Source: Squalus acanthias (Eukaryota). From it: a DNA stretch of 64,000 bases. The position numbers and the translations under genes are program-made. Below the pieces are notes generated by a model. It saw only the letters and a program-made list of their open reading frames with translations. It ran no database searches and was not told the origin of the DNA. The stretch spans positions 122,452,001 to 122,516,000 of the forward strand of contig CM059431.1 of NCBI GenBank assembly GCA_030390025.1, in the 5' to 3' direction. Below are positions 2,930 to 48,822 of the stretch, in pieces (the first letter of the stretch is position 1; every line of letters begins with the position of its first letter).

Positions 2930-3743
2930 GGCCGGAATTTTAATTGAGAGGAGGGTTGGGCTGGGGTTGGGGGGTGCCGTTCAGAAGCAGTTGAGAAACC
3001 CGAGAGAATGGGTTTCCCGCATGCCCTACTGAATTTAATGGCAGGGTCTGATTTGCATTTCAAAGCTCTGTTTTTGACCCGCAGCCAGCTAGATAGAGGA
3101 CATCGGGGGGCCGGGGGTGATTGGGGGTGGGGCGAAGGGAGAGAATGACACCAGCCTGGAGAACGATCAGGGGGGCGAGATAGAGAACGATCAGGAGGTG
3201 GGGGGCGGGGGACGGGGTCAGGTGAGAGAGGCAGAGAACGGGGCTGGTCTGGTGAACGATCGGAGTAGGGCAGGGGGGAGACCGGGAAGGTGATCGGAGG
3301 CCTTGGGGGGTGCGGGATCAGAGGCCAGGAGGTGTGGTGATCGGAGGCCCGTGGGGAGGGATCGGAGACCTCATGGGGGTGTCTCCGATCATGGGAGGTG
3401 GGTTAGGCAGGGACGCTGGATCCAGGAGGTAAGTGTAAAGGCACCTTCCATTAGCTGTTGGGCTTTCGGAGGTCTGTGAAACCCGACCAGCCACAGTTTA
3501 ATTTAAAATGCAGGTTAAATCTGAGGCATGCCAGCCTCATTGTAACACTTAAATGGGAGACCTGTCCCCTGTGAGCAGGTTGTCTGCCCACCACCTCCCC
3601 CCCCCCCTCCACCCCCGGCCTGCCTCTGTTTAAACCGGAAGTGGGCGGGTTGGAGGCAGGTTCTGGTTGGGATTCAGATTATTAACATTTTAACTTCCCA
3701 CACGACGCCAACCCACCCGTTTTTTGGGGTTAAAATTCCCCCC
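2930..3743. mobile_element. Harbinger-type MITE with a G-rich interior, inserted in a CR1 3' tail
   Basis: TIRs GGCCGGAATTTTAA / TTAAAATTCCCCCC; flanks TGT/TAT; degenerate GATCGGAGG repeats at ~3150-3400. Confidence 0.75.
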
Positions 3744-5491: not shown

Positions 5492-6002
5492 TAGACGTGT
5501 ATTCAGAAGCCTTTAGGACATTCAAAATTCTATTGTGCTTGTGTGAACTGGCCTGAATAAAGGGGTAAGAAAAATGTTGTCTTTATCAAATTAAAAGGAT
5601 AATAGAAATTGCCAGGATCTACAGTCAATAATCCAATTATTCTCAGGTGAAGAACACAGGCTATGTTTTTACGATTACTAGAACAGGCCAAGGGTCTGGA
5701 TAGCCCTGACACTTCTTCTGAGCCTGCTACAGAGGAACCACCAAAACCTACAATTGCCTGTCCATTTTCAAATTAGTCGTAGCAGTCCAGGCAGTACCAG
5801 CATACAAATGAAAGCAATTTATGGTGCTCAAGTTGTCAGAACAAAGGATCACATCTGGAACTATACAATATACCATGTATGTCATATATATTAAATGCCA
5901 TTTTGCAGTTTCTAGTTTGTAGAGGCCCAGTTACAGCTTGCTGCTAGTTAACAAATATTTACATCTTGGAAAATATGGGAAGCCAGGCTACTGATCCCTA
6001 CT

Positions 6003-6214
6003 GAAATAACAGAAAATGCTGGAAACACTCAGTAGGCCAGGCAGCATCCGTGGAGAGAGAAACAGAGTTAACGTTTCAGGTCTGTGACCCTTCGTCAGAA
6101 TTCTGAAACGGTTAACTCTGTTTCTCATTCTCCACGGATGCTGCCTGGCCTGCTGAGTGTTTCCAGCATTTTCGGTTATTTCAGATTTCTAGCATCCGCA
6201 GTATTTTGCTATTG
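6003..6214. mobile_element. Penelope-like inverted terminal-repeat fragment
   Basis: Two inverted arms of ~90 bp; 14-bp TSD TACTGATCCCTACT (5989-6002 and 6215-6228); same repeat caps the GIY-YIG element at ~29660. Confidence 0.85.
6062..6100 (-). ncRNA. Minimal hammerhead ribozyme motif (Penelope type)
   Basis: Minus strand reads CTGACGA-AGGGTC-ACA-GACCT-GAAA-CGTTA, i.e. CUGANGA + helix II + GAAA + palindromic AACGTT. Confidence 0.7.
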
Positions 6215-14269: not shown

Positions 14270-15026
14270 GGCCTGTATTTTCTGATCCCTACGGGTGCGT
14301 ACGAGGTGTGTACACACCCGTAGGGACCTCGCAAGTGCCGGTTTCAGGCATGCGAAGCGCATGTGCTGAAAACCGGCACTTCCGATCTGACAAGAATCCT
14401 CTTGACAGATCGGACGCCTGCCCTGGAGAAGGGCCTCTGCGGGTGGAGAGTTCCGCTTTCTGCAGAACCTCCGCCGGCTGAAATCCCTTAAAAATCTTAC
14501 ACCTGGTAAAAGCAGGCGTAAGGCCTGCTTTTACCAGCATAAGAGTTTTAAAACATTTTTAATTTTTTTTTTCACTCATTTATAATTTAAAAATACTTTA
14601 AAAAAAAGTAAGTTTATTTTTAGCCCTGTAAAATACTTTAATTATTTTTTCAAAAGTTACATTTTTGATTAAAATATTTAATTTCATGTAATTTTAACTA
14701 ATTTTAAAAACCTGATTTAAAAAAAATGGATTTAATGTTTTGATGTGTTTTTGGGAGTGATCCCCATTCATACTTTTGGCAGGTCTAAGCTGTCAAAAGT
14801 ATGAAGGGAGATTCCCTTCTTTCATTGGTTCCCCATGGCCCACGTGATCCCAGGGACGTTTGTGAACCGCATGCGCCCCTGGGATACCTGGGCCCTGAGC
14901 ATTTCGTAGAGCGGAGGCCCAGGAGCGGAAATGGCCGGACCTCTGGAGCCTTCAGGTAAGGGCGCAGATTTTTTCCAGATTGGAGGCCTCTGCACGCAGG
15001 AAGCCTGCGCTCGGAAAATACGGGCC
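14270..15026. mobile_element. Harbinger-type MITE, ~760 bp
   Basis: TIRs GGCCTGTATTTTC / GAAAATACGGGCC; flanks ACT/ACG; CpG-rich ends and AT-rich core; same layout as the 16968 and 19910 MITEs. Confidence 0.85.
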
Positions 15027-15529
15027 ACGATGTTCTGTATGAGTGAGTACAGTGATTTTTCCCAAAAGCTGCTTCCCCTCAGTGCTGCTGTATTGTACTT
15101 GTCCAGTGCTTCTTTCCCTCATGCTGCAGGTTTTCTCTTCTCCCCAAATATTTTTGTTTGTTTCTGTCACTTGATTACATATGTGCAACTTTCACTTCCT
15201 TACTCTAGTTCTACCTGTGACAATGCCATGGGAGATGGAATATAGGGGGTTATTTTGGGGAAAGGGTGAAACAGGCACTAATGGATGCTGTGCTAATAAG
15301 ACACACCTGCTTAAAAGTATGGCTTTAGCCTGCAATTTTGGAGCTAATTGGTGATTATCATGATTTAAATGTACCTGGAGATGCTAAAACGGAGATCTGC
15401 ACGTTTAGCACTCAAACGCTGATTAGGAGCAATTTTCCTGGAGCGGTATATATAAACTCCACCCACCCACTTCCACTCAATGTGTGGAGTGCGCTGGCTG
15501 ACACACAACGGAACATTTCAGGTGGCTCA

Positions 15530-18170
15530 GGGACTGAGGGAGAGAGCACACAGGTTCTCGGATGCAGCACTGGAGGTCCTGTTGGAGGCGAACTAGAGGA
15601 GGAGGGGTGTCCTTTACCTGCAGGGTAGAAGGAGTCCTCAGAGGTAGATAATGCGGTGGACATGGGAGCAGGTCGCCCAGGAAGTAACAGCCAAGAGCCC
15701 TGCCCCCAGAATATGGCTCCAGTGCCGCAAGAAATTGAATGACTTGACACAAGTGGTCAAGGTAAGATCCCATCTCACAAATACATTGCTCACTAACTGC
15801 ACCACCAACATCACAACCTCAACACACTTCGTCCACCATCTAACTATACACTGACATTCACACACACCACACTATTGCATCCTTCACAGGCACTATTCAC
15901 ACCTCAGATACATCTAACAGCTCTTCAATCAATTGAGGCATCACACACAATACACCTGTCAAGACACTCATTCACAATCACCACTCTTTCTCTTTCAGGA
16001 AAAGGTAGCACAAAACAGGCACCAGCAGGACCTGACCGGGGGAGGGGAAGCATGACTGCATGCTATCACCCCCCTTGAGGAGGCAGTGCCGGCTGTGGTC
16101 GGGAGGGGAGTGGCAGACGCCGTGGCCACAGGCAGAGCAGGAGGCATATCGCCTAGAGGTATGTGGCCACACCAGCTTCCTTACAGATCCACAACTATTT
16201 ATGATCCCTAATCCTCCAAACCTATCCTCACTCCCAAGCTCCAAATGGCCTCATCACGCACATCTTCCTATAGTGGCCACACGCGCTGCACCCTAACCCT
16301 TCTAGCTTTATCATTGCAGGCTCCCAGGAGCAGCATCCATCTCACCACCAGCCCACCCCCCAACCCCCCATGGAGGAACTGGAAGAAGAGGAAGAGCCAC
16401 CTCACCCCCCAGAGAAAGAGGAGCAGGAGGAGGAGAGAGAGGAACATGGCACGGCATCAATCATCCCCACTGTCGCAGGCACCAGCTCAGAGACCGGCAC
16501 CATGCATATGTTAGAGGTTAGAGTAGAAGAGGGATCCTCACAGTGGGACACACTGGACACTAGTGGGCAGTAGCCACAGTGGGTGGAAGGGACACCATAG
16601 GTGCCACCTTGCCAGGGGGCAAGGTCGTATACTAGTTCTGCTGCAGAGCAGTCAGATGAGGACCTCACAGGGCCAAGCTTCAGAAGAAGGCTGATGGGTT
16701 TGAGAAACCAAATGCTTGGTGCAATGGACAGCCTGCCTGAAAGCTTACGGCTCGTGGCTGGGGAGATGGAAGAGTCCGCCTCCAGCTTAGCCCAAGGCTT
16801 AATGCAGAGCCTGGAACCCATCCTCTCCAGCGTGGAGAGGCTGGCCAATTCCATCCGGCAACCTGTGGAGCCCAAAATCATGCAGCGTCTGAAGATTGAG
16901 GTCGCAGTTTCAACTGCAGTCATTGCAGCTTCCATGGAACGGCAAACAGCTTGCAGGGAATGACGATGGCCCAGAAATTGATCTCGCTCTGTTCCCGCGG
17001 GGGTAAGCCTTTCCCGCGATGTCTCACCTCGCTTATGCTTTTTCTGATCCAGCTCGCACGAAATTGATGTTCTGGACAGCTGCTGTGCTGGGCTTGCGTA
17101 TCCCAGCGGCGTAGTTAATTCGTGCGAGCTGTGGGATCACGTGACTCAGTTAGAGCCAATGGCAGCACACCATCTTCCATTCATAAGTCTCACAGCATGG
17201 CTGAGAGACTTATGAATCTTACACCCCCCCAAAATAACAGCTAAACCTCAATTAAATTTAAAAAAAAACCCATCACATTAATAAAATAAGTATAGTTAAT
17301 TAAATTAACCATTTTAAATAAAAAATTAAATTTTTGAAAAAATTTAAAATCTTTTAAAAAGTTATAAAAATAAACTTACCTGTCTTTAAAGTCTATAAAA
17401 AAGATATACCTGTAAAAAAAAATTCAAAAAAATACTTAATTCACTACTTACCTTCTTAAAAGCGGGTCTTACTCCTCCTTTTTACATTTCCAAAATCTTC
17501 AGTACTTACCTGCGCGTCCAAAGCATGAAGTGCACAGCGTGCGCGCAGCCTGTAGCGCGCACGCGATGCACTCCGGCCCCGCCCCCTTTTCGGAAGAGCA
17601 ATTGCCGGTTTTCAGCGCATGCGCAGGGCATGCAGAAAACCGGCAATTGGAGTGGGAATACGCGAGAGTATGCAGTGCGTACTCTCGCGTCCCGGGATCA
17701 ATTTTCGGCCCGATGTGCTGCAATGGAAGCTCAGTTAGCTGCTATGGTGGATCTGGGCTCATCTGTTGAAAAGAGCTTGCCGAGTTTCTCAGCTGCCCAG
17801 AATTCTGTCCTCCAGCAGATCACTGGCCTGGCTGAACAGGCGCCCCGAGGTAGTGGCGTGGGAATCATGGAGCAGCAACCTACTGGCCTCTTTCCGGATG
17901 GCAGCATTGCTGCTCCCTCCCCCGCCACTCCACCATTGCCCTTGCCGTTGCCATTCAGCCAGGTGGCCCAGACTGCTCAAGGCCCATGCTGAGGTAGTGC
18001 AGTCTGAGGCGGGGCCATCACGGCTCATAGCCTCTCAAGGGCGTCGCAGGAGGACATCTGAACTGCCCTCTTCAGATTCTCAGTGGCCATCCATCTCACG
18101 TGCTGCTGTCACTGGGGTTGCACTTCATAGAAGCAAGAGAGTAGGAAGAGCACTTATAGATAGTCACTAA
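15530..18170 (+). pseudogene. Myb/SANT-like partner gene of H5 (3 exons, degenerate)
   Basis: WEQVAQEVTAKSPAPRIWLQCRKKLNDLTQVVK|gtaaga; exon 2 ~15999-16159; exon 3 from ~16320, split by a MITE; ends QSEAGPSR...LHRSKR. Confidence 0.85.
16968..17711. mobile_element. Harbinger-type MITE
   Basis: 16-bp TIRs GGCCCAGAAATTGATC / GATCAATTTTCGGCCC; GAT TSD; interrupts Myb exon 3. Confidence 0.92.
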
Positions 18171-18489
18171 TGATAAGCACCAGGGTGAATAGTTTAATAA
18201 TTGTAAGTGCAGTTGGTTGTTGTAATGATTTTGTTGTCTGTTGTTGCTGTAGATAAAGAGTGATTATGGTAATTGGGTACTGGCGGAATTGGTGGTCCTT
18301 TTTATTGTGTTCTTCATGGGGAAGGGGTTGAAAGGATTGAGTGCAGATGGTGGACTTCTTGATGGATCCTCAGTCCTGGAAGTTAAGGGATGTGGTAACA
18401 GTGCTCTGAAGTCTGATGGCGGAGGATGGATTTCAAAATTGGTCTTTAATTCGATGGCGCCAAGCATCCCTCCCAAGTGCGGGCCATCT

Positions 18490-19580
18490 ACCTGAAACAC
18501 TCTGGTGATTCCCCTGGTCACCCTCATCTCCTCCTCCTCTTCCTCCTCCTCCTCTTGTGGCTCCTGAGCTTGACCCTCTGGCACAATTACTGTAGGTAAA
18601 GACTGGTCTCTCATGATTGCCAGATTGTGGAGCAAGCAACATGTTACCACGAATCGGAGATCTTCTCAGCTGAGTACTGCAGGACACCCCCTGCCTGGTC
18701 AAGGCATCTAAAGCTCTGCTTGAGGACCCCAATGGTCTGCTCAATTATATTCCTAGTGGCAGAATGACTCTCATTGTATGAGTGCTCATGTGGGGCTTTC
18801 TCAGGGGAGTCATGAGCCATGGCATCAGAGGATATCCCTTGTCACCTAGTAGCCAGCCATGCACATTGTATTGGGGCTCAAATATCTGTGGGACGGATGA
18901 CTGTCATTATAAAAGCATCGTGGCAGCTCCCTGGATAGCAGGCATTCACCTGCATGATGCGCTGCCGATGGTCGCACACGAGCTGCAAACTGAGGGCATG
19001 GAATCCCTTCCTGTTCCTGAACACCTCTGAGTTTAAATGAGGGGTTCGCAAGGCCACATGTGCGCAGTCAATGGCTCCCTGGACTATGGGGAATCCCGCA
19101 ATCCTGTCGAATCATAGAGCTCTCTGCCTCTGGTCTTCTCTGGCAATAGGGAATGATATATAGTCATCTGTCAGAGCATATAGAGCCGCAGAGACCTCCC
19201 TTATGCAGAAGTGGACAGAGGATTGTGATGTGTGACTTATATCACCTGTAAGGTTCCAGTAGCATAGATTTGCTACTGTGACCTTGACTGCCACAGGCAT
19301 TGCAGTCCTGGCTGTGCTGTGAGATCTGAGTCTTTGTTCCACGAGGCCACAGATCTCTGTGACAACCTCCTTAGTGAAGTGCAGCCTCCTCATGCACTGA
19401 TCTTGAGTCATGTGAATGTAATGGTGCTCTCTGAAGATCCTGGGTGGATAGGGTTTCCTGCTGAGTACCCTCCTCACCATCTCTCTTCCAGCAGCTGGTG
19501 CTGCTCTGCTTGGCTTCATCTTCTCCTCCCATTCCCCCTTTAGACCAAGGGGGACCCCTAGCAAGATCCCCATGACCAAG
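18490..19580 (-). pseudogene. Harbinger transposase of H5
   Basis: [47 protein letters not shown] and CCLLHNLAI across frameshifted segments. Confidence 0.9.
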
Positions 19581-19909
19581 CATTCCCTTTCTCCTGGTGA
19601 TTCCTATAAGTTCTTCTATAAGGTAGAGTAGCACAGCACTTATTCTCTTTAGGTGAAGGTCTCAGAGAATTTTCAGGAAAAATGTTGATAGATTGTTGGT
19701 GAAGTCTTGAAAAAGTGTTCCAGAAAGTCTCCCGATGTGTCTCAAAAGTCCTCTTCAAATGCAGTGTGGTCAGTTTATCTTCAGGCAATGCAATTGGCAG
19801 TCAGAGCTTTAACGATCCTCGGGGCAGCCATCTCTAGCACGTGCTTCAACTCCTTTACCAAGATGGCGTCTTGCGTTAAAAGTGAGCTAAACGAGCGTTG
19901 CAGCTCATT

Positions 19910-21438
19910 GGCCCAGAAATTCGCCTCTCCGGCTTGCCGCGGGGGTAAGGATCGCGCGCGCACTTACCTACCGCTCCTGCCGTTGTGTTTTGGGCCCACA
20001 GGAACTTCAGCTCCTGGTCCTGCTCCAAGTGCCGGCGCGCAGTGCTTGCATGTCCCAGGGGTGTAGTTAGTGTGATGCGTCCCCTGGGATCACATGGGCC
20101 ATGGAGAGCCAATGGCAGCAGACCATCATTCATTCATAGATTTGACAGGAGACCTGTCAAATCTGTGAATTGAAATCGGCCCCAAAAGAACAGCTAAACT
20201 TAAAATATATTTTTTTTAAAACCCATCACATTTATAAAATAACTATAGTTAAATAAATTAACCACTTTAAACAAAAATTTAAATTTTTGAAAAAATTAAA
20301 ATACTTTTTAAAAGTGATAAAAATAAACTTACCTTTCTTTAAAGTATCTAATAAAGTTAAACCTGTTGAAAATGTTTTTAAATTATACTTAATTAACCAC
20401 TTACCTTGTTGAATACGGGTCCTGCGCCTCCTTTTTAATGGACCAAAAATTTGGCCCTTCCCGGGTGAGTACACAGTCCGTACTCACCCGTAATGCGTCC
20501 CGAAGTGCCGGTTTCCTGCATGCACTGCACATGCGCGGGAAACCAGAACTTCTGGTATGGTGAAGGGGGCGGTTCCGAGGTGAACCGCGTGCGCGGTAGA
20601 GGCTGCGCGCACGCAGCAAACTTAGATTTTTTTTCAGGTTTCTACGCGAGGGTAAGTATTGAAGAAACTACGCTATTAAAAAGGAGGCGCAGGATCCGTT
20701 TTCAACAAGGTAAGTGGTTAATTAAGTATAATTTAAAAACAATTTCAACAGGTTTATCTTTTTTAGATACTTTAAAGAAAGGTAAGCTTATTTTTATCAC
20801 TTTTAAAAAGTATTTAATTTTTCAAAAATTTAAATTTTTGTTTAAAGTGGTTAATTTATTTAACTATAGTTATTTTATAAATGTGATGGTTATTTTTAAT
20901 TTATTTTAAGTTTAGCTGTTCTTTTGGGGCCGATTTCAATTCACAGATTTGACAGGTCTCCTGTCAAATCTATGAATGAAAGATGGTCTGCTGCCATTGG
21001 CTCTCCATGGCCCACGTGATCCCAGGGGACGCATCGCACTAACTACGCCCCTGGGACACGCAAGCACTGCACCCCGGCTCTTGGAGCAGGACCAGGAGCT
21101 GAAGTTCCCGTGGGCCCAAAACACAATGGCAGGCGCGGTAGGTAAGTGCGCGCGCGATCCTTACCCCCTGCGGCAAGCCGGAGAGGCGAATTTCTGGGCC
21201 ATTAGCATAGTTTCTTCACTACTTACCCTCGTGTAGAAACCTGAAAAAAAATCTAAGTTTGCTGCATGTGCGCAGCCTCTACTGCGCACGCGGTTCACCT
21301 AGGAACCGCCCCCTTCACCATACCGGAAGTTCCGGTTTCCCGCGCATGTGCAGTGCATGCAGGAAACCGACACTTCAGGACGCATTACAGGTGAGTACGG
21401 ACTGTGTACACACCCGGGAAGGGCCGAATTTTTGGCCC
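19910..21438 (+). mobile_element. Young MITE family M, outer copy (split by the inner copy)
   Basis: TIRs GGCCCAGAAATTC / GAATTTTTGGCCC; halves 19910-20439 and 21204-21438 rejoin to match the inner copy. Confidence 0.92.
20440..21200 (-). mobile_element. MITE family M, inner copy, inserted in reverse into its own family
   Basis: Reverse complement of the outer copy; flanks AAT/ATT. Confidence 0.92.
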
Positions 21439-21620
21439 AATACCTCAAATGCTCTTTAGCGCAGAAAATATCCAGGGGAAATTACCCCATAGTTTCTTAC
21501 TGGGTTAAGATTTTTAGATTGGTTTTAAACTTTAAATGGTGGCTTCTATTTTACCTTGTGGTCCAGTTTTCATTTTCAAATACTGATTTATGCAATTTTT
21601 AATTGATGTAATGAAATAAT

Positions 21621-21745
21621 GGGAGTAATTTCAACCTACCCAGCCCGGCAGGAAACTGGAGAGTAAAATGGGGCGGGGGTGTCAAAGCGGCGTGCAAACT
21701 GAACTCGTCAGTTTCCCGCTGGGTGGATTAGGTTAAAATTGCCCC
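21621..21745. mobile_element. 125-bp Harbinger-type MITE
   Basis: GGGAGTAATTTCAACC / GGTTAAAATTGCCCC; flanks AAT/AAC. Confidence 0.65.
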
Positions 21746-23402
21746 AACATGTTAAGGCAGGGTTAGAGGAATGTACCATTCCATCTCTTTAGCTCCTCTT
21801 CCTTCTTCTTTCATAACTGATTGTACTAACAGAACTCAAGGGTGAAGAATCAACAATAATTTCCCCTGTGTAGCTTCTAAGTTTGTCATGCATTTCACAT
21901 ACTCCTGGTTACGTCTGCAATGGCTGTAGAGAGCACATTCTGATATGTAAAATTCAACCCCACTTGAAAATTTTAGCCAAAAAAAAGTACCAGTACGTAC
22001 CTCATGTGAAGGGAAGGTTGTGTAACTGCGCTGAATCGAGTTTGTCAAATTCTGCGACTGCAGAACCAGTTTCTTAGACCATGCAAACAGAAAGATTACC
22101 TCTGCAAAAAATGGTTGGCACCGTAATCTGCTTCCTTTCTCACTTCAAAGATAACATGGTTTAATTAGGCTCTTTCAGGCCAACAATTTCATAAACCTGT
22201 CACAAAGAATGATTACCTGTCTGTGAGTCCGTGCTGATCACTATCTGTTGTGAACTCGGTAGAGCGCATCCCGTGAATTTTGCGGCTCAACACGATTGTT
22301 AATTTACCAATACGAATGCAGTGACAGTCGTTGCTTAGATAAGAGTGCCCGAAAACAGGTCCTTGTTTACAGCTTGTAAATCACATTATCCATATCCTGC
22401 CACCATATAAATTGTAAGTTAGAACAATTCTGTGAAGTCACGATCACACATCACTTTGTCACTCTATGACAAAGGCAAAGTGCAGTGGGGATTTTGTATC
22501 ACATTTTGATGACTTGCTTCGACATTTTCCTGAAACAATAACAAGTTCTCCACGATAGAAATCTTTTTAACATTTTCGATTATTTAACTTCATTGTAGCG
22601 CATCTGAATCATGCAAATAAAAATAACTTTGTGCTGCTGTACGGTTAGAGCCAGTATTGTCTCTTTATAGTGCTCACTGCATAAGCTTCAGATTGCATAC
22701 AATCCTTCCGATTGTGGCGGCCCTCCCCGATAAAGATTTTAGAGCATTTCTAATTATTCTTCCGTTTGGTTAATCCTGAAGCCTACTTTTGATTTTGATA
22801 TGTGCACTGCCACTAAATTAGTCAAAGCAGCTTCATAGACAATAGTGGCTGGGGAGCATGCCAGTGATTTCATGCTCCAGTGGGCAATGCTCCATGCTGA
22901 GAAAGGGATTTTGCGATATATATAAATAAATATATGGCATTGCGCTTGGTAAGTCACAGAAAACACTGTCTTGTCTTTGTGTTGCCGTTGGTGTCCTGCT
23001 TGTTTCTGCAGCAGACTCTCTGCCATTTTACTTCCGTTTCTCTTCTTTTTTTTTGTTCTTTCTCTGTAGTGTTCTTTTATCTTTCTTTCCCACTTTTGTG
23101 CACTCACAGGTCTGGAAGAGGCACGTCCCTATGGAGTGGGGAGGTGCCAGCAGAATGCAATGTTAAGGACCGGTGCACTAATTAGCTTTGATCACATGTA
23201 GTCACCCAATTCCACACCTAGGTGTGTGCCTTTGCCCTGTGCTGCATCATGTCTTCTCATGCCCATGTATGGACTCCCCACACCTAATGTTCCCTTTCTC
23301 TGCAGCACCTGAGCACTCACCACATCCACTCAACACTCTGTCCACTGCCCTATTCACCCATTTTGTTCCACCTTGACCCATAGCCTTCCTTCTGTTGACA
23401 TT

Positions 23403-24170
23403 GGCTCAGAAATTTGGCTCCCTGGTTTCCCGCGGGTGCAAGGATCCCGCGCGCACCTACCTACCGCGCCTGCCGTTGACCTCTGGGCCCACGGGGACTT
23501 CAGCTCCTGGGCCTCCCCCAACTGCCGGCGCGCAGTGCTTGCATGTCCCAGGGGCGTAGTTAGTGCGATGCGTCCCCTGGGATCACGTGGGCCATGGAGA
23601 GCCAATGGCAGCAGATCATCTTTCATTCATAGATTTGACAGGAGACCTGTCAAATCTATTAATTGAAATCGGCCCCAAAACAACACCTAAACTTCAAATA
23701 TTTTTTTTTTTTAAAAACCATCACATTTTTAAAATAACTATAAGTTAAATAAATTAACTACTTTAAACAAAAATTTAAATTTTTGAAAAAATTAAAATAC
23801 TTTTTAACAGTGCTAAAAATAAACTTACCTTTCTTTAAAGTATCTAAAAAAGATAAACCTGTTGAAATTTTTTTTAAATTGTAATTAATTAACCACTTAC
23901 CTTGTTGAAAACGGGTCTTGCGCCTCCTTTTTAAAAGCACAGCCTCTTCAATACTTAACCTCCCGGAGAAACTTGAAAAAAAACCTAAGTTCGCTGCGTG
24001 CGCGCAGTCTCCACCGCGCACGCGGTTCACCTCTGAACCGCTCCCTTCACGAGACCGGAAGTTCCGGTTTCCCGCGCACGAGCAGTGCATGCAGAAAACC
24101 GGCACTTCAGGTGGCCTTACGGGTGAGTACACAACGCGTACTCACCTGGCAAGTGCCGAACTTTTGGCCC
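23403..24170 (+). mobile_element. MITE family M, third copy
   Basis: Colinear and highly similar to the 19910 copy; flanks ATT/AAT. Confidence 0.92.
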
Positions 24171-24489
24171 AATATCTTTCCCACTTACTGCAGTCTCCTG
24201 TTGCTGCTCGCCCTCCCTGTTTTTGCTACCCCTCTCTTTCCCCCCCCCCCCACTCTTTCCCCATTCCCACTGTTCCACATCTTTTTCCTATCTCCCTCTT
24301 CCCATCACCTCCCCATTTTCCCTCATATCCCCTTCACCTTCTCGTTCACCCATCCTGGATGTTGTTCCCCCTCTCCCTTTCCCTTCCAACTACCCTTCCA
24401 CTTACTCATCTTCCCTACCCTTTCTCTTCGCACTCCCCTTTTTCACCCACTCCCTCGTCACCCCTTTCAGCTATTCTCCTAAAATTCCA

Positions 24490-26517: not shown

Positions 26518-27255
26518 GGTCGAGAGTTTCCACTTTGGGCGCAATCGGTGATCCGGGTGCAAATTGCGCTTAAAATTGCGTTCGTTTAACTAAGTGTTTT
26601 TTTGCTCAAGTTTCTGCTCAAACTCATTTACATAGCTCCAAACGTAAAATCTTCCATGAACCAGCGCAATCAGGCACGTGTTTTAGAACAGAATTTACTT
26701 TTTAAAATTTGCGTTAAAAAATATTTCTCGACAAATTCAAGAGTGGTAACCTGGTGCAGTTTCTTTAATACAGCCGAAAATGGATTTAATACAAAAACTA
26801 AGCAGTTTTAATCAGAGTGCCTCCTCCACCCACTGTGAGTAACCCAATTTTAAATAACTGAAAATGACTTTAAAAACTATACATTGCCTGGTTAGATTGG
26901 TGTACAGTAGTCAGTTTCTTAGTAAATTAAATTTAAAAAATATTTTAAAGCTTTTGAAAGGTCAATGTCCTTGCACCTAAAAAAGCTTAATTTTAGGAGC
27001 CTCCTCGAAGGCCTGCAAACGGCCGCAATTAGCAGAAACTCATCATCGTGATTAATTCGATCGGGGCGTGGCCAGTTTTGTGGGTGGGGCTGGCTTCTAG
27101 CGTGGTGTTTTTTAAACTAGCGCAAAGATCGCGGAAACTCGATTTGCGCTGAACGTAATTTGCGCTTAAAATTCCGCGATCTTTTGTGTTGGTTTTGCTG
27201 ATTTCTGGTGAATTACCCTGAAAACACCAGCGCAACCTAGCGGAAAGTCCAGGCC
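26518..27255. mobile_element. Harbinger-type MITE
   Basis: AAT TSD on both sides; TIRs GGTCGAGAGTTTCC / GGAAAGTCCAGGCC; repeated GCGCAA/TTGCGC subterminal motifs. Confidence 0.85.
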
Positions 27256-29330: not shown

Positions 29331-30009
29331 AAATCCTCCACAGGAAACAATGGTTTCTGTGATAATAAGGCCAAAAAAACACAAACTTGAAAGATTTAGA
29401 AAAGTTAACTATAGATGAAATCATTCTGGTATCAATTGATTGATAATCTCCAGAACGATTATGTGGGGAAAAATCCTGTGGGCACAATCTCATAGGAATT
29501 AGAAATCTCACTCTAATGTTTGTCTGTCTATATTTGGTCCATTCATCTCTCTTGTCTTTCATCCTTCTTAACAAAGTTCAAAGTTGCTGTAGCTTTTAGT
29601 CACCCACTGTTCAGGTCTATCTTTCTAGTCGTGGGTCTGCAGCAACTGGGTAACTATAATAACAACAGAAAATGCTGGAAGCACTCAGCAGGTCAAGCAG
29701 CATCCGTGGAGAGAGAAACAGAGTTAATGGGCTGGATTTTGTCAGTGTGGGCGGGCTAGGGCCTTATCAGGTGGAAATCATGTCAGGACCCTGACTCCTA
29801 AGTGATGTGTTGAAAAAGTGAGATTTTCCCCTAATTGGGCAATTGATTTCCTGCGTGTGGGAACCACTGGCCCAATGAGTCTTTTCATACAAAAAGTCGC
29901 TTCCGATGACATCATCAATTCTGTTGGATTTAAGGCCTGCAAGCAGCCTTGCTTCTTCTGGAGACTGGAAATGCTTTGGACATTGTATGAAGGACTTCAT
30001 TTACCAACC

Positions 30010-32072
30010 ATGTCCACCAGCAAGCAAAAGTGTGCACCTCGCTTTGATGAGCCCTCCCTCCAAGCTCTGGTGCAGGGAGCAAGATCTAATAAGGAGGTGC
30101 TCTTCCCTTCCTCAGGGAGAAAAAAGCCACCACAACAGACTAAAGCTGTGTGGCTGCAAGTGGCCCAGGAGGTCAATGCCATCTCTATGTGCCGCAGAAC
30201 CTGGCTGCAGTGCAGGAAGAGGTTTCATGACCTTCTCCGCACAGGAAAAGTGAGTATGACTTTCCCATCACCCTCAATCTGATCCCCATCGCCTCTCCTC
30301 ACCAGCACTCAGCTTTGCCAACCCCTTCCTCCACATCCCACTTGTGATTTCAAATAAAGCTGTTGGGCTATAACCTGGTGTTGTGCGACTTCTCACATTT
30401 GTCCACCCCAGTCCAGTACCGGCATCAACACATCATCCAACTTGACACTGACATCCCTGCACCCTTACCCATTCCCCCTCTCTCTATGGGCACATTCACT
30501 TAACTATTCGAACATGCAGCCCTCACTCTCCCTATCACTGTGATGCAATGACAACAACTTACAACACACAGGAAGGGCCCTTTGTCTCCTTCTAAGCATC
30601 TATGCTATGGATTCTCTACACTCACTCCTTCATTCTCACTGATTCTCCACTTGTGTCCCTCATTGCAGGAAAAGAGAGCCCACAATAAGAGGGAAAGAGT
30701 GAGGACAGGAGGAGGGCCACCCTCAGTAGCCCAGCTCACCACCTCGGAGGAGGCGGCCCTGGAAATTGCCAGGATTGAGGAGGATTCCCAAGTGAGGGAC
30801 GGACAGGCAGGTGCATCAAAGCAAGCTGGTGACAGAATAGTTTGGCATCTCTCTCATTGACATTGCATGAGTGACTGATAATGATTCTGATGCTCTAACA
30901 GATTGACTTATGATCATCTGCACAATCCAATGTGCATGCAACCTTTACCTCACATCTCTAACTCTTTCTTTTACTCCCCCACAGGACCATCGAGAGCCCC
31001 CATCCGCACTGTCCAGCAGGAAGCGCCTGAGCTTCCAGACTCCTCAGAGGAAGCTACAACCTCTGAGGGCGCTCCGTCAGCAGAATTAAGCACACCCTGC
31101 ACCAGCGCAGACACTCACACCTCGGTGGGACCTTCGGGACATAGAGTAGAGTTGTCACCTGGTGTATCACAGCTCACAAGTGAGCATCAGCAGATGGTGG
31201 AGACAGGGACAGCAATGGAGAGTCCTTGTCGCAGTGGAGAGGACGCTCCCAGCTCGGCTCCGCTGCATGTCGACCCTGTGCCTCCGGGTCCATCCAGAAG
31301 GAGAGCGGTGCTGGAACTCCAGGAACAGGTGCAGGAGTCTCTGGCAGGTTTTGTCTCCAGGGTCGCTGCGAGTGTGGAGCAAAAGGAGGAGTCCATCGCT
31401 AACATGAGCAGAGCCTTTGTGGAGGCATTGGCGCATGAACACATCACCACGGATAGGATAGCAACCTCCTAGGAAAGGATGGCTACCTCCATGGTAAGGC
31501 TGGCTACCGTAGAGGAGAGGATGGCTGCGTCCATGGAGGAGCTTAGTCGCCAGGGTATTGAAAACATTGTAATTGTTCGGAATAGACAGACATCTCTTGA
31601 GGAGCGTTGGTCAGCTATTGAGCAAACAAACCAGACCTTCATGCAAGTCCTCTGGAGTAGGACTTCCAGTGCAGAAATGGGTCCTCATGGCCCCCCTGCA
31701 GTGCAGCAAGGTGCTGTCCAGCCACTTGCTAGTTCTGAAGTGGGGCTGACCCATGAGAGGGATGTTGGTGGCATACAACAAGGAAGTGGGGGCTCCTCTC
31801 CAAGCGCTCACACGACCATGCCACTGCAGAGCCCTCGGTCAGAGCCCCACCAGAGTCCCCACCCAACTGAGATCGGCGTCTCATCCCCTGCACAGCCGCA
31901 GGAGCAGCAGACTGTTGCCGATGCCTCACAGGTTCGCAACCCCAGAGGACGCCCGCCAAAGGTGTCGAGACAGGAGCAGCAAGAAAGTGAGCAAGGGGCC
32001 TCCACATCTGCTGAAGCCACAGGGGAAGCACCAAGTAGGAACACGCGTAAGAGGAAGATAATGCACAAGTAG
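30010..32072 (+). pseudogene. Myb/SANT-like gene of H6: exons 30010-30249, 30669-30828, 30985-32072, with one in-frame TAG at 31470-31472
   Basis: APRFDEPSLQALVQG...WLQVAQEVNA..RTWLQCRKRFHDL; GT-AG introns in phases 0 and 1; heptad-like repeats; PRGRPP AT-hook. Confidence 0.88.
30340..30435 (+). repeat. Penelope-like terminal fragment in Myb intron 1
   Basis: Near-identical to 57680-57772. Confidence 0.8.
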
Positions 32073-33209
32073 TCACAAGGGTAGTCACTTGGGTGTAATC
32101 TTGTGTTTAATTTTGAAAAGCCATCAGTTGCTTATTGTCATAAAAATTTCTGATGGCAAACTTGCAGTTGTGGCGTGTGTCATTTCGCTAATGGGACTTC
32201 CACATTGAGGGCTTAGGGCGACTTGCAATTGTCAGTATGGTGGTCGGAGTGATAGGAATCCGTAGGTTCTTGGCCATTGTCGATGCTCTGATAAGAAGGT
32301 GCGAGGCAAAAGTGTTTGATTGTGCAGGCTAAGCAAATCTGGCCAAGATGAGTGCGTCCCTTGCATCCCGGGCAGCAATGTGGTCGCGTGCTGGCACCTT
32401 CTGGCCTGTGCAGCTTCAGGTGGGTGAGCAGCTCCTGTTGTTGCTGTTGCTGTTGGTGGTGCTGTTGTTCATGGTTCTGCAGCTGCCACGGCTGGTCTTC
32501 GTCTGAATCTGATGTCCAGGAGGAAAGGAAATAAATAGTTCCCATGCTTCTGGTATATGCCTCAGTTGAGGAAGCGCTCATTCAAGGTGGCGAGAGGGGT
32601 TTCCCAGGAGGTCACACTGGAGATGGGTGTCAGGCTCCAAACTTCCACAACAATGGGTATGCCTGCTAAAAGTTCCCCCAGACCTGAGACAACAAAGTTC
32701 TGCCACCTGCAAATGATGATTGGTGAAAACTCCTTTTTAATGGTGGAGCTGCAGCTGTTAGTAAGCAGTCCACTTGTGAGGCCGCCAGGATTCACTGGCG
32801 TGTATCAGAGGAGAAGTGCAGGACGTGGGAAAAGTTGTAAAATCAGAAAGGCCTCTCAAAATGGGATTATAGAGGCACTTAACTGGTTGTTAAGGGACTA
32901 TCCCACCTCTTGGAGGCGGGATGGAAACGGGGTCAGAAATCTCGCATTTGGGAAAATTGCTCGGAGGCGGGTTGGAGGCGGTATTGGGCCCGCCCACCAT
33001 ATTTTGCGATTTTACCACCTCACACGCCTCCAATCCCGCCTCCTCGGGCCTGGCAAAATCGAGCCCAATGTTTCAGGTCAGGGACCCTTCATCAGCACTG
33101 GAAAAGGCTAGAGATGTAACAGATTTTAAGCAGGTGCTGAGGAAGGGAAAGGGGGAGGGGAGGGGAGGAAGGAACATTCTGTGCTGGGGTAGGAGGCAGG
33201 AGAGATTAA

Positions 33210-43437: not shown

Positions 43438-44730
43438 ATCCTGGTCCTCCTCAGCCAAGTGCAGAATTGGTGCATGAATTGGACACTTTAACACCAACCA
43501 GCCATTTCATGAGTAATTTTTTAGTACATAACAAGCAAAATGTGTACTTTACAGCTTTAATGAATTTTTTGAAGAAGCTACCAAGTTAGTGGTTTAGGGC
43601 AATCTGGTAGACATCATCTACCTGGATTTTCAGAAAGCCTTTGATAAGGTACCTCACAAGCTGCTACTCTACAAAATAGACTCTGTGGAATTAGTGGTAT
43701 TCTGCTATAGTGGGTTAAGAATTGGTTGAATTCTCACAGGCAGAAAGTTGTTGTCAATTGATTCGGATCTACTTAGATACCAGTTACCAGAGGTGTCCAA
43801 CAAGGATTGGTGTTAGGACCTTTGCTCTTTACTATCTTCATTAATGACCTAGTTGTAGGTATTGGGAGAATAATCCACAAGTTTGCAGACAATACAAAGC
43901 AATGTGTGAGTGTTAGGACTGTAGAGGGTGCTAAGCTACTGCAAGCAGATCTCAATGTGTTGGGGGAATAGGCCCATGTTTGGCAAATGTTTAATGAAGA
44001 AAAGTGCAGTATTATACATGTGGGCAGGTGTGATTCTAAATATACATGCACCTTATGTGGAACAGAATTGAATTCAATAGTGAAAGAAAAATATCTGGGT
44101 GTTATAGTGCGTCATTCTCTAAAGGTTCACAACCAATGCTGTGAAGCTATATCTAAAGGAAACAGGGTAGTAGGTTGTATTCAAAAGGCAATTCACTACA
44201 AAACAAAACCTACCATTTTGTCCTTGTACAAGACCTTGGTTATGCCTCATATACAGTGCACCCAATGAATACTGTGTCAAGTTTTGGTCCCTTCATATGG
44301 TGGGGAATATTGAGGCTTTGGAAAAGGTACAGAGGAGAGCTGCAAGATTGATTCTTATTTTAAAACACCTTAGGGTAGAAATTCGTTCGCGCCCCATTTG
44401 GGGCGCAAATATCGTCCGGACGCAAATATTAGCGCCTGGCGCTAATTATCGGCACTGACAGGAAACTTCACTTTTACCGTCCCGGGAGGTGAGTGGAGCG
44501 CTAAAGCAGGCGCTGCACACCTCTCTTAAGGCGCAAAGGCCAAGGAGTGAGGCGCTAACTCAGCGCACGAGCGCAGCGCAGCTGCTGCCAGTTAGCGAGG
44601 GAACACAGACACACTGGCGCCGGCCACTTCTTAAAGCGGGGGGGGGGCCACTTGCTCCCCAGCCACACCCTGCTCATTGCAGCCTTGAATCTCAGCCTGG
44701 AGAGACCTGTAATCCATTTTGCTGCCAAGC

Positions 44731-46608
44731 ATGGAGAGGGTGAGAGAACGCGCTCATCGCTTCACCGAGCGGGCCTTGGATGCTCTGGTTGACGCAGTGG
44801 AGCGCAGACGATGTATGCTGTTCCCTGAGAGTGGCAGGAGGCCTTTGCCACGCGAGTTCAGAAGAGTGTGGAGGGAGGTGGCTCAGAGCGTCTCCTCCAG
44901 GAGCATGGTGCCCAGGACCCATGTTCAATGCCGCAAAAAGTTCAACGACCTCACTCGGGTCGTCAGGGTGAGTGGCTTTTTCTCAATACCTCTCCATCCC
45001 TCCATCTCAACCTCACTCTATGGCCAGAGGGTCTTAAAACCCCAATGCACAACACTCATCCAACACCTATGGCCCTTTCATGAAACACACACACACATTC
45101 TACACTTTGCATACAGTAAGGGCTATTCACCTATGGGAGGCACATCAGGCAAGACCATGGCTGTATATTGTAAGGGCTATTCACCTATGGGAGGCACATC
45201 AGGCAAGACCATGGCTGTATATTGTAAGGGCTATTCACCTATGGGAGGCACATCAGGCAAGACCATGGCTGTATATTTACTCAGATGCTGTCCTTTTTCT
45301 TGCAGGCTAAGCTGGCTCATAATCGGAGACAGCAGCAACGGACGGGTGGAGGGCGGCTTCAGCTGCAACCCCTCAGCGATCTGGAGGAGCGCGTCCACAG
45401 GATTGTGGCAAGCCGGGTGATCGGTCCCGTCGCCACTGGAGACGCCGACCCCGTTGTGGACAGCAATGGTAAGGTCATCACCTTTTTGTCCTCTGTCCTT
45501 CCACTTGTCCCTCACAATACCAGCCTTTGACACTTTCAATCCAACTTGCTATCTCGCTGCACTTATTCCTCCCTTACTGCCACCCTGTCCTCACGCTAAA
45601 GCCACTCTTGTACCTCCCTGCTTTCAGATGGTGATTCACCAGCTGAGAAGACGGGCCCTGAAGCTGCCACTGGGAGTGATGCTGCAGCTGAGGAGGAAGA
45701 GGAAGCCAGAGCATCAGTGCCACCCTCTCCCGAGGAAGCCCATGCCCACACTGGGAACACGCCTTCCCCGGAGGGGAGCAGGGGGGAAGGGGCTGATGAT
45801 GGTGAAGCTCCAGGACCCAGCGGGCTGCAGCAACGCCATGGGGGGGGGTAGGGAAGAACGGGGGCCTTCTCCCCAGAGGGAGAGTATGCCAGACACTCCT
45901 ACTGCAATGGACGCAGAGGAGGAGCGGCTGATTGCAGAAATGAACACCCAGGCGGTGGGCATGCACACTGAGCTCATGGGTGCAGTGGGAAGGGTGCCCG
46001 AATGCATTGAGTCACTGGCAAGGAGTGTGGAGCACTTCGCTGTAGCACAGGCGGATGCCACACTAACGCTTAGTGCTGCAATTCAGTCACTGGCTGCCGT
46101 GATCCCACCTCTGACTGCTCTCATACAGACTCAGATGGAGGCCACGCGAGCACAGACTGCTGCCAACCTCGATGGTTCGTGCACATGTCCCCGGGGCTGT
46201 CACCGCGCCGCAGCAGGCCAGCAATCTGTTCTCCGGCAGATTGCTCCGGATGCTGAAGTGCTGCCCCGTGGGAGTGCCAGTGTGTCGGGCGAGCAGGGAG
46301 TTGCTGGCCTCTCTCACGATGACAGCATTCCTGCTGCCAACACTGTCACTTCTCCACTGCACTTGCCACCGCCTGTAGGACAGACTGCTGCCGCCCATGC
46401 AGAGTTGGTGCAGTCTGCAGCCGGGCCCTCCAGGCCCAGAAGTGGTCGAGGCTGTCCTTCAGGGGCATCTGCAGTGTCAGGGTCTGACGAGCAGCAGCCT
46501 TCCACCAGCCTTGCTGCAGCCACTGAGGTCCCATTACGGAGGAGCAGTAGGGTTAGAAGGGGGGAAGTGCGCAAGGGAAGGAGATCACCCTCGAAGGGCA
46601 AAAAGTAG
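44731..46608 (+). CDS. Myb/SANT-like DNA-binding partner: exons 44731-44967, 45306-45468, 45628-46608; apparent +1 frameshift at G9 (45840-45848)
   Basis: MERVRERAHRFTERALDALVDAV...WREVAQSV..QCRKKFNDL; canonical GT-AG sites in phases 0 and 1; the paralogue has G5 in frame. Confidence 0.85.
45116..45277 (+). repeat. 54-bp tandem repeat x3 in Myb intron 1
   Basis: Unit TAAGGGCTATTCACCTATGGGAGGCACATCAGGCAAGACCATGGCTGTATATTG. Confidence 0.95.
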
Positions 46609-46902
46609 GAGGTGTGCCAAAATGCTGGTCATTTTTTTATTAAAGGCCGAGGTTCATGGTCCAACTTTTGTTTAGTGTTTTGGACATTATCTCCAGGTTG
46701 TGAGAACCAGTTATGTTATTGACTGTTTTTTTGTGTTTATTTCTATGAGTTTGTCATGAGGAATTGACACACACAGAGTTTGTAAAATAAATAAGTTTCT
46801 GTATTCAAAATATACATGGCTGGTGGTTGGAATTATTGGTGCCTTGGCCGGCTTAGGGGTTGCGTGCTGGGTTGATTAGTGTTTGTAGCAATGGCAGGGG
46901 CC

Positions 46903-48063
46903 CTAGAAGCGGCTTGCTATTAGTCGTTGACGGACGGCCCTTGCAGTTTGACCATTGTGGGCCGCCCTCCTGCCTTGGTGCTGCTGATGATCATCGTCCT
47001 CGTCCTCTTCCTCCTCTTCCTCCTCCTCCTCTGGTGGTGCTACAAGACCTGGTGGCATTGGCTGGGTCCTGAGGATTGCCATGTTGTGCAACATGCAGCA
47101 CACGACTACGAAGTTCGAAACTTGCTCAGGCGAGTACTGCAGGGCTCCTCCGGAATGGTCCAGACAGCGGAACCGTTGTTTCAGCACGCCGATTGTGCGC
47201 TCAATAATGTTCCTGGTTGCTTGATGGCTTTCATTGTACCGCAGCTCAGCAGGGGTGTTTGGCGTACGGAGCGGTGTCATCAGCCAGGTGCTCAATTCGT
47301 ACCCCTTGTCCCCCAGAAGCCAACCAACTGGCTGATGCGGTGCCTCGAAAACTTCTGCCACAGTAGTCTGGCGCAGGATGAAAGCATCGTGGCAGCTGCC
47401 CGGATAGTGGGCATTGACAGCGAGTATCACATGTCTGTGGTCACAGACCAACTGCACATTCAAGGAATGGAACCCCTTTCTGTTCCTGAATTCCTCTGCA
47501 TTCTCTCGCGGAGCACGCAAAGCCACATGCGTGCAGTCAATGGCGCCCTGCACCATGGGGAAGCCCGCTACCCTCGCAAAGCCCAGAGCACAGTCACGCT
47601 GCTTGTCTGGGGTCATAGGGAAAGAGATGAAGTCTCGTCTCCTTCTGAAGAGGGCATTGGTGACCTGCCGGATGCAGCGATGCACCGCAAACTGGGAGAT
47701 ATTGGCGAGGTCCCCAACAGCAGCTTGGAATGAGCCAGTGGCGTAGAAGTTCAAAGCCACTGTGACCTTCACTGCCACCGACAGAGACGTCCTGGACCTC
47801 AGCTGAGGCTGCAGATCTGGCTGCAGCAGGTGGCAGAGCTCAGTGACCACCTCCTTGCTGAATCGCAGCCTCCGCAAACACAGGTCCTCGGACATATGGA
47901 TGTAGGAGAGCTGTTCACGATATACCCTGGGAGGGTAAGCTCTCCTGTACATGCGCCTGATGGCCCTCCTCCGTCTGGCCATCATTGCCACTCTCTGTCT
48001 GCGTCTCTGTATCCTCCGATTCAGCTGGAGCAGGACGACGCCCCCAATCATTGCAGCCCCCAT
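46903..48063 (-). CDS. Harbinger DDE transposase (HARBI1-like), 386 aa from MGAAMIGG, uninterrupted
   Basis: GAIDCTH, LLGDKGY and [15 protein letters not shown] catalytic motifs; HTH region; acidic tail. Confidence 0.95.
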   Translation of the reverse strand: MGAAMIGGVVLLQLNRRIQRRRQRVAMMARRRRAIRRMYRRAYPPRVYREQLSYIHMSEDLCLRRLRFSKEVVTELCHLLQPDLQPQLRSRTSLSVAVKVTVALNFYATGSFQAAVGDLANISQFAVHRCIRQVTNALFRRRRDFISFPMTPDKQRDCALGFARVAGFPMVQGAIDCTHVALRAPRENAEEFRNRKGFHSLNVQLVCDHRHVILAVNAHYPGSCHDAFILRQTTVAEVFEAPHQPVGWLLGDKGYELSTWLMTPLRTPNTPAELRYNESHQATRNIIERTIGVLKQRFRCLDHSGGALQYSPEQVSNFVVVCCMLHNMAILRTQPMPPGLVAPPEEEEEEEEEDEDDDHQQHQGRRAAHNGQTARAVRQRLIASRF

Positions 48064-48822
48064 ATTCTCCTTGCTAGAAAAGTAATGAGGTACAGCAACT
48101 AAAGTAGCAACAAAGTTAGGATGAATAGGCAAAACTACCTCACAAAGCGTTGAGTCAATGTAGAAGTCTCTCTCTCTCTCTCTCCGAATCTCTCTCTCTC
48201 TCTCAGAACGAGTGGTGCATAAATGTCGACCACAGAAAAAGACAGGAAGAGGCCCCCTTTAAATAGCGCCCCCCCCAGCCCCACACCGATTGATAACGTT
48301 CCAGTCTTCCGGTCGTTGGAAGCGCCAGGCGGTAAGGCAGGGGGCGCCACTCAATTTCCGCTCCGGGGCGCCCCAAGGGCGTTGCACCATGGAATGACGT
48401 CACAATCTGCGCGCGCAGGTGGTCGCAGCGGTAAGTTTTAGCGCCGCCGCACAATCTCAAGTTAAGTTCTCGAGCGGCGCAAACAGCGCTGCGCCCGGGC
48501 GTTAGCGGCTTAACGCCCCATTAGCGCCCTCTTAAGGCGCTAATGGGAGGCGCAACCAAGTGAATTTTTACCCCCTTAGATACTCAGATAGGCTTAATGA
48601 GCTCTGTCTGTATACTTTAGAGCAACATAGATTCAGGGATGATTTGATGAAGGTTTATAAATTAATGAAGGGCCTTGATTTATGTCGACAAATTATTAGA
48701 TAGGTTAAGGAGAACCAAAGGTTACGCTTATAAGTTATGTAAGGGCAGAACTTGGTTGGATGTTAGACCATTCTTCTTTTCCTAGAGAATAACTGACCTG
48801 TGGAACAGGTTGCCAATTCATG

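What the first reader, a model, noticed from the sequence alone, without database searches (positions are those of the whole stretch)
19907..24173. All three copies of a young MITE family have TSDs that differ at the central base (ATT vs AAT)
Seen: outer copy ATT-[element]-AAT, inner copy AAT-[element]-ATT, third copy ATT-[element]-AAT. The inner copy's empty site can be read from its own family (cctttttAATagc), so one flank does not match the target. The MITE at 2930 also differs centrally (TGT/TAT), while other families here have perfect TSDs. Established: piggyBac carries donor TTAA overhangs and gives mismatched TSDs at non-canonical targets; PIF/Harbinger elements excise precisely. Inference: this family may carry 3-nt donor overhangs into the new site, with heteroduplex repair of the middle base. 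An alternative is fold-back conversion that extends the TIR.
Basis: partly seen in the sequence, partly recalled or inferred. Interest (0 to 1): 0.7.

Follow-up and report, generated by a model that had tools for sequence, protein, structure and literature searches.

The report
Harbinger MITE with centre-swapped target duplications
Three neighbouring copies of an abundant cut-and-paste jumping gene in a shark-like genome are flanked by three-letter duplications that disagree at the middle letter, most likely a trace of bases carried over from the previous landing site, but three copies are too few to show that this is a habit of the family.

Summary
In detail: ATT/AAT (outer), AAT/ATT (inner, nested in the outer) and ATT/AAT (third), with AAT as the inner copy's empty site. 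They are ~760-bp non-autonomous PIF/Harbinger-type MITEs of a very abundant family. Neutral decay gives 3-of-3 central A/T swaps with P about 3e-5 (upper 3e-4). ATT..AAT is not part of the TIR, and fold-back is unlikely. That an excised element carries 3-nt donor overhangs is already published for rice mPing (PMC11254759, PMC4561436). What would be new is their fixation during normal insertion. Rice mJing tables show a central excess (10 of 15 single mismatches; 7 of 91 TWA pairs swapped), but two apparent orthologue pairs disagree. Against: the closest relative in the window has a perfect GAT/GAT, the other 8 well-bounded elements show no central excess (1 of 8 against 1 of 16), and published TCA-donor mPing insertions read TTA/TAA in 45 of 46. 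No genome was held, so the family-wide test was not run and no empty allele was seen. Best reading: partial overhang retention, 0.45.

The parts
19907..19909 (+). Left flank 3-mer of the outer copy, ATT
19910..21438 (+). Outer MITE copy (about 765 bp without the insert), TIRs GGCCCAGAAATTCG / GGGCCAAAAATTCG read inward, 12 of 14 complementary; split by the inner copy; sits in the subterminal region of an older decayed Harbinger element
20437..20439 (+). Left flank of the inner copy, AAT, equal to the family's empty site
20440..21200 (-). Inner MITE copy, 761 bp, 94.9% identical to the outer copy, inserted in opposite orientation
21201..21203 (+). Right flank of the inner copy, ATT; the central base differs from the target (derived flank)
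21439..21441 (+). Right flank 3-mer of the outer copy, AAT
23400..23402 (+). Left flank 3-mer of the third copy, ATT
   Evidence: junction spanned by one contig each in runs X1 and X3, the base itself not resolved there
23403..24170 (+). Third MITE copy, 768 bp, 88.8% identical to the outer and inner copies
24171..24173 (+). Right flank 3-mer of the third copy, AAT
16968..17711 (+). Older related MITE (70-73% identical, left TIR identical over 12 bases) with a perfect GAT/GAT duplication: counter-example
14270..15026 (-). More distant relative (60-62% identical), flanks ACT/ACG (mismatch at an outer position)
2930..3743 (+). Unrelated Harbinger-type MITE, TGT/TAT (central transition; not an inverted pair)
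44372..48574 (.). Autonomous-type Harbinger element of another family (Myb/SANT ORF on +, DDE_Tnp_4 ORF on -), perfect CTT/CTT; shows the superfamily active here, not shown to be this MITE's partner

Best explanation
The three elements are ordinary non-autonomous PIF/Harbinger-type MITEs with a 3-bp duplication and an AWT-leaning target inside a Y-NNN-R context. The central swaps most likely come from partial retention of the donor overhang. The two-protein transposase cuts the donor TSDs staggered, so each element end carries a 3-nt 5' overhang (shown for mPing, inferred here). The 3' ends are joined to a target cut with a 3-nt stagger (established DDE chemistry). Usually the overhang is trimmed and the gap filled, giving a perfect TSD. 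When donor and target are AAT and ATT, the overhang can pair across the gap with one central A:A or T:T mismatch and be ligated (inferred). Replication or one-sided repair then fixes one target-type and one donor-type flank (inferred; matches the inner copy). How often this family does it is unknown.
For: 3 of 3 close copies carry a central A/T swap; neutral P 2.9e-5, upper 2.7e-4, from 6, 7 and 6 private A/T swaps per 413 A/T sites. The inner copy has one flank equal to its empty site and no deletion beside it. mPing is cut staggered at its TSDs, tolerates either base in the middle, and central T:T pairs are joined at donor sites (PMC4561436). Donor TTA/TAA arrives with mPing at new sites (PMC11254759). 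piggyBac ends carry a TTAA overhang (PMC7351741). In the rice mJing tables, 5 of 7 and 5 of 8 single-base TSD mismatches are central (p 0.045 and 0.088; pooled 10 of 15, p 0.009, partly orthologous rows), and 4 of 44 plus 3 of 47 TWA/TWA pairs are swapped. A simple model gives 50%, 25%, 10% and 5% mismatched copies at 100%, 50%, 20% and 10% retention.
Against: n = 3, chosen after the fact. Without them, 8 well-bounded elements give 1 of 8 central against 1 of 16 outer mismatches; with 4 uncertain elements, 2 of 12 against 5 of 24 (both p = 1). Two other families with AAT targets are perfect (26518-27255, 29729-33066), and so is the GAT/GAT relative. In yeast, 45 of 46 insertions from a TCA/TCA donor read TTA or TAA (PMC4561436; transposon display), so retention is rare for mPing there. 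The mPing carry-over in PMC11254759 is at Cas9 breaks joined by NHEJ, and that paper says free transposition leaves intact TSDs. At the mJing-like rate (about 8%), 3 of 3 has P = 5e-4. Two apparent orthologue pairs in the rice tables disagree at the centre (Nip 6.1 TAA/TTA against 93-11 6.2 TAA/TAA; Nip 9.1 TTA/TTA against 93-11 9.1 TAA/TTA; matched by eye from sequence and position), which points to later change or curation slips. No empty allele was seen for the outer or third copy.
Confidence: 0.45

Rival explanations
1. Chance. Each TSD was perfect at insertion and three independent point mutations hit the central base; the pattern was noticed because a very large scan offers many families.
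For: The copies have decayed (2.5-8.7% private changes). No central excess among the other elements of the window. Any shared position has P 1.4e-3 per three-copy family, and this genome alone has 185 windows with notes.
Against: All three changes are the A/T swap at the one position free in the target consensus; P 2.9e-5 to 2.7e-4. The outer and inner copies are only about 2.5% decayed. The rice tables also lean to the centre.
Confidence: 0.2
2. Change after insertion, driven by the transposase or by the huge copy number: re-cutting and re-ligation (including flipping in place), one-ended insertion into a nearby AWT site (adjacent deletion), or ectopic conversion or recombination from another copy that runs through the TIR into the AWT. 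With positions 1 and 3 fixed by target preference, any flank exchange looks like a central swap half the time.
For: The family is very abundant: 14,981 and 19,247 contigs laid from runs X1 and X3. Two apparent rice orthologue pairs differ at the centre. No empty allele shows that the flanks of the outer and third copies were once contiguous.
Against: The inner copy's flanks are contiguous family sequence with no deletion, which excludes adjacent deletion there. Exchange between the nested partners is excluded: the equivalent ends read ATT in the outer and AAT in the inner copy.
Confidence: 0.2
3. Assembly or polishing error: reads from thousands of other copies overwrite the one variable base beside the TIR.
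For: Very high copy number. The contigs of X1 and X3 that span the third copy's left junction carry 4 differences each, of which 2 and 3 are listed outside the TSD; 2 and 1 are not shown, so the TSD base is not resolved.
Against: Other high-copy Harbinger-type elements in the same window have perfect TSDs (6 of 11). No TSD position is among the 40 differences listed (174 not shown).
Confidence: 0.08
4. Fold-back (quasi-palindrome) conversion between an element's own ends extends the TIR by three bases, or ATT..AAT is part of the TIR.
For: In each copy the two flanks are reverse complements; this is automatic for any AWT central swap.
Against: The inner copy has the opposite arrangement (AAT..ATT) and the relative has GAT..GAT. 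TIR position 3 stays asymmetric (GGC / GGG, GGA in the inner copy) in all three, although it lies four bases from the changed base. A contig of run X11 continues ATA beyond the right end. TGT/TAT at 2930 is not an inverted pair.
Confidence: 0.04
5. Wrong register: the element ends are TGG..CCA and the duplication is a 2-bp AT (the ISL2EU-type target, recalled, not read in a call).
For: The outer and third copies can be read AT-[TGG..CCA]-AT.
Against: The inner copy then has AA/TT; with GG..CC ends and an AT duplication it leaves one base too many against the empty site. The GAT/GAT relative needs 3 bp. All 11 well-bounded elements fit Y-NNN-R in the 3-bp register.
Confidence: 0.03

Closest known systems
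mPing / Ping-Pong (rice Tourist MITE, PIF/Harbinger); PMC4561436 (parts 1-3 of 5 read), PMC11254759 and PMC2836001 (passages)
   Same: Short non-coding element, TIRs starting GG, 3-bp TSD with a free central base, extended target preference, two-protein mobilisation in relatives; staggered cut in the TSD and donor TTA/TAA carried with the element.
   Different: Target here AWT/GAT in a Y..R context instead of TWA. For mPing, free insertions are described as having intact TSDs; carry-over was shown at Cas9 breaks. Here mismatched flanks stand in natural germline insertions.
mJing (rice PIF/Harbinger MITE); PMC6850418 (passages; Tables S2, S3, S4 read whole)
   Same: Its tables list left and right TSDs unfiltered and hold central TAA/TTA swaps in 7 of 91 TWA/TWA pairs.
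   Different: About 8% there against 3 of 3 here. The passages read do not remark on the swaps. The tables show signs of curation slips.
piggyBac; PMC7351741 (passages). Li et al. 2013 on mutations at noncanonical sites: title seen in reference lists only, paper not held, content recalled
   Same: Seamless excision, and an overhang of the old target on each element end.
   Different: 4-nt TTAA made through a hairpin, single transposase, unrelated superfamily. A hairpin step is not shown for Harbinger. This is a 'works like', not a membership.
PHIS groups Pangu (ANT), NuwaI (CWG), NuwaII (C|TNA|G); PMC4482050 (passages)
   Same: GG-starting TIRs, 3-bp TSD with a variable centre. ANT matches Pangu's target; the Y..R flanks recall NuwaII's C..G.
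   Different: Pangu's second ORF has no known motif, whereas the autonomous elements of this window carry Myb/SANT. The partner of this MITE was not found, so the subgroup is open.

Membership tests
PIF/Harbinger (PHIS) non-autonomous element / Tourist-like MITE | Short TIRs beginning with G or GG | tested here: met
   9-12 of 14 complementary, starting GG
PIF/Harbinger (PHIS) non-autonomous element / Tourist-like MITE | 3-bp target duplication shown by an empty site | tested here: met
   Inner copy: three bases gained against the family's empty site, central base mismatched; relative GAT/GAT
PIF/Harbinger (PHIS) non-autonomous element / Tourist-like MITE | Short, no transposase, high copy number | tested here: met
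   761-768 bp; the stop-to-stop frames over the copies were not scanned; summed contig depth 1e5-1e6 against 7-17 in the flank, which is not a copy number
PIF/Harbinger (PHIS) non-autonomous element / Tourist-like MITE | Autonomous partner with DDE transposase and Myb/SANT protein sharing the ends | tested here: inconclusive
   Autonomous-type elements with DDE_Tnp_4 (E 3e-39) and Myb_DNA-bind_5 (E 1e-8) and similar TIRs lie in the window, but none shares internal sequence with the MITE
PIF/Harbinger group in the strict sense (TWA) | TWA target | tested here: not met
   Flanks are ATT, AAT, GAT; TWA definition as cited in the C. inopinata preprint
Pangu group | ANT TSD | tested here: inconclusive
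   3 of 3 close copies are A-W-T; the GAT relative is not
Pangu or Nuwa group | Transposase clade | not tested
   Partner unknown; no tree built
piggyBac | TTAA target and 4-bp duplication | tested here: not met
   3-bp AWT flanks
piggyBac-like mechanism | Donor overhang ligated into the new site | not testable with these tools
   Needs a genome-wide census or a transposition assay

The most novel reading that the evidence does not exclude
This vertebrate Harbinger family routinely ligates the donor overhang at insertion, as piggyBac does, so that a quarter to a half of its very many copies carry centre-swapped TSDs. Each such copy would record one base of its donor site, and standard TSD filters would miss a large part of the family.
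Probability: 0.3. Interest if true: 0.7.

Novelty: new variant of a known kind. Interest (0 to 1): 0.42.

Why it matters
If the family-wide census confirms it, a genomic fossil record would answer how PIF/Harbinger insertion junctions are finished: overhang trimmed and gap filled, or overhang ligated. This bears on mPing/Pong tools, where flank integrity decides whether an insertion can excise again. It would also mean that surveys which require identical TSDs (C. inopinata preprint; Medicago survey) discard a biased part of such families, and that TSD mismatch is not a clean age marker for them. If the census is negative, this is an ordinary nested MITE with three coincidental or secondary changes.

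Tried and rejected
No genome was held, so the decisive census could not be run. Searches for more copies gave nothing: viral contigs, metagenome contigs twice, genome contigs. The window's transposase found no relative in plasmids or viral contigs, so a test on prokaryotic relatives was dropped. Contigs of four runs laid on 22700-24238 showed no joint across the element among the 15 listed (5 not shown), and the loose-end table (24 of 896 rows shown) did not pair left and right flanks; this is no evidence that empty alleles are absent. Runs with a small share are not used for any claim on habitat or species. No homologous empty site for the outer or third copy exists in the window. Four elements with weak TIRs or doubtful ends (1751-1931, 15426-21488, 21621-21745, 54651-55118) were kept out of the main count and reported separately; 37363 and 9688 had no clear second end and about 37920-38740 an eroded one, so they were not counted. 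Rejected: ATT..AAT as TIR, a 2-bp AT duplication, exchange between the nested partners. Literature searches (open-licence PMC and bioRxiv only) listed no paper whose title or abstract start reports central TSD swaps in natural Harbinger insertions. PMC8505701, PMC9179366 and PMC4786924 (passages) added nothing on mismatches. The four supplements of PMC4561436 were listed, not read; they may bear on the single TCA insertion.
Full report
What is there. The window is vertebrate-type DNA dense in Harbinger-type elements; earlier notes of this scan call the genome shark-like (not checked by me). The finding covers three copies of one ~760-bp non-coding element. The outer copy (19910-21438) is split by an inner copy in opposite orientation (20440-21200), and a third copy lies at 23403-24170. 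Outer and inner are 94.9% identical; each is 88.8% identical to the third. The TIRs read GGCCCAGAAATTCG and GGGCCAAAAATTCG inward. Contigs of two deep runs pile on the element (14,981 and 19,247 laid; summed depth 1e5-1e6 against 7-17 on the unique flank), and two other coded organisms hold it too. The family is very abundant, although depth is not a copy number.

The observation. The inner insertion's empty site is AAT in the inner copy's own sequence and AAA in the third, so the central A is ancestral and the right flank ATT is the changed one; nothing is deleted beside it. Private A/T swaps run at 6, 7 and 6 per 413 A/T sites, which gives P = 2.9e-5 (upper 2.7e-4) for three central swaps by decay, and 1.4e-3 for any shared position. 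The pattern was chosen after the fact, so these numbers overstate the case.

The window as a control. Eleven Harbinger-type elements have clear ends. Mismatches: 0 at position 1, 4 at position 2, 1 at position 3 (Fisher p = 0.03). Without the three index copies the count is 1 of 8 central against 1 of 16 outer; adding four uncertain elements, 2 of 12 against 5 of 24 (both p = 1). The nearest relative (16968-17711) has a perfect GAT/GAT, and two other families with AAT targets are perfect. The TGT/TAT at 2930 is a transition in an unrelated element and adds little. All 11 sit in a Y-NNN-R context, which fixes the 3-bp register.

Rivals removed. ATT..AAT is not part of the TIR: the inner copy has the reverse, the relative has GAT, and one X11 contig continues ATA. 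Fold-back between an element's own ends would be expected to even out TIR position 3, which stays asymmetric in all three copies. Exchange between the nested partners is excluded because their equivalent ends differ. A 2-bp AT duplication with TGG..CCA ends fits two copies but not the inner one.

What is known. Gilbert et al. 2015 (PMC4561436; parts 1-3 of 5 read) propose that mPing's TSDs are cut staggered, leaving 3-nt 5' overhangs. They show that the middle base is free for excision and that a central T:T pair is rejoined better than A:A. They also report that 45 of 46 insertions from a TCA/TCA donor read TTA or TAA. Liu et al. 2024 (PMC11254759; passages) state that the donor TTA/TAA comes with mPing to Cas9-cut targets, and that free transposition leaves intact TSDs. 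piggyBac ends carry a TTAA overhang (PMC7351741; passages); the paper on mismatches at non-TTAA sites was not held and is recalled. So the overhang is known for this superfamily; its fixation during ordinary insertion is the open step.

An outside test. The supplement of the rice mJing paper (PMC6850418) lists both TSDs for 72 and 79 copies without an identity filter; I read both tables whole. Nipponbare: 52 matched, 7 single and 13 multiple mismatches; 5 of the 7 are central, and 4 of 44 TWA/TWA pairs are swapped. 93-11: 59 matched, 8 single and 12 multiple; 5 of the 8 are central, and 3 of 47 are swapped. Pooled, 10 of 15 are central (p = 0.009 against one third; the two genomes share some loci). 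This suggests a real but minor central excess of about 8%. Two cautions: two apparent orthologue pairs disagree at the centre, and the tables show slips (for example TIR columns out of step with the sequences on chromosome 7 of the 93-11 table). The signal may therefore be later change or curation error.

Mechanism. Shown here: three central swaps, and target identity for one. Established for mPing: staggered cut and overhang on the element. Inferred: an AAT overhang meeting an ATT gap, or the reverse, pairs at both outer bases and can be ligated, while overhangs that differ more are trimmed; this would explain perfect GAT, CTT and TAA duplications next door. Replication then gives one donor-type and one target-type flank. 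A toy model gives 50% mismatched copies at full retention and 10% at 20% retention. Three of three needs a rate of 25-50% to be comfortable (P 0.016-0.125); at 8% it is 5e-4, only about 2 to 16 times the neutral figure. I give retention 0.45, chance 0.20, later flank exchange or re-cutting 0.20, assembly error 0.08, and the rest 0.07.

Limits. No genome was held, no further copies came from the public collections, and the one read-laying run did not resolve the TSD bases or show an empty allele. The MITE's transposase partner was not identified; the autonomous elements of the window carry DDE_Tnp_4 and Myb/SANT domains but share no internal sequence with it. By its target the family is not strict TWA PIF/Harbinger; ANT matches Pangu and the Y..R context recalls NuwaII (PMC4482050; passages), and the subgroup is untested. 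Nine literature searches and six look-ups in this scan's notes showed no report of this pattern; most subscription papers are not covered.

Verdict. A real observation on an ordinary kind of element, with a plausible, partly published mechanism and a cheap decisive test. New variant of a known kind; interest 0.42.

Noticed in passing
window 19910-21438, 23403-24170, 16968-17711: The family carries several GGTAAG splice-donor-like motifs, mostly on the strand opposite to the element's orientation as drawn here (10 hits over the nested pair, 2 in the third copy, 4 in the 16968 relative; window average 0.69 per kb).
   Followed up: partly
window 20132-20170, 20939-20977, 23625-23663: Each copy holds an 18-bp-arm hairpin with a 3-nt loop; relatives keep a hairpin at the same place with different sequence (17179-17217, 14760-14812).
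   Followed up: no
window 19910-21438: The nested pair forms long inverted repeats (about 530 bp at 94% and 240 bp at 93%) that have persisted; the two copies have equal private divergence (2.6% and 2.5%), so the inner copy landed soon after the outer.
   Followed up: partly
11 well-bounded elements, 2930-54130: All 11 have a pyrimidine before and a purine after the TSD; A four bases upstream in 5 of 11 and T four bases downstream in 8 of 11 (read).
   Followed up: partly
window 44372-48574 and 49698-54130: Two related autonomous-type Harbinger elements about 1.1 kb apart, both with CTT/CTT duplications; the first has an open 451-aa stop-to-stop DDE_Tnp_4 frame.
   Followed up: partly
window about 15330-21490: An older decayed Harbinger element hosts both the 16968 relative and the nested pair: three insertions of one MITE lineage into one element.
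   Followed up: no
PMC6850418 Table S2: 7 of 13 multi-base TSD mismatches have exactly one canonical TWA side, as donor carry-over onto a non-canonical target or one-sided deletion would give.
   Followed up: no
window 6001-6184 and 57570-57736: Palindromic repeats of other families (88% and 95% self-complementary).
   Followed up: no
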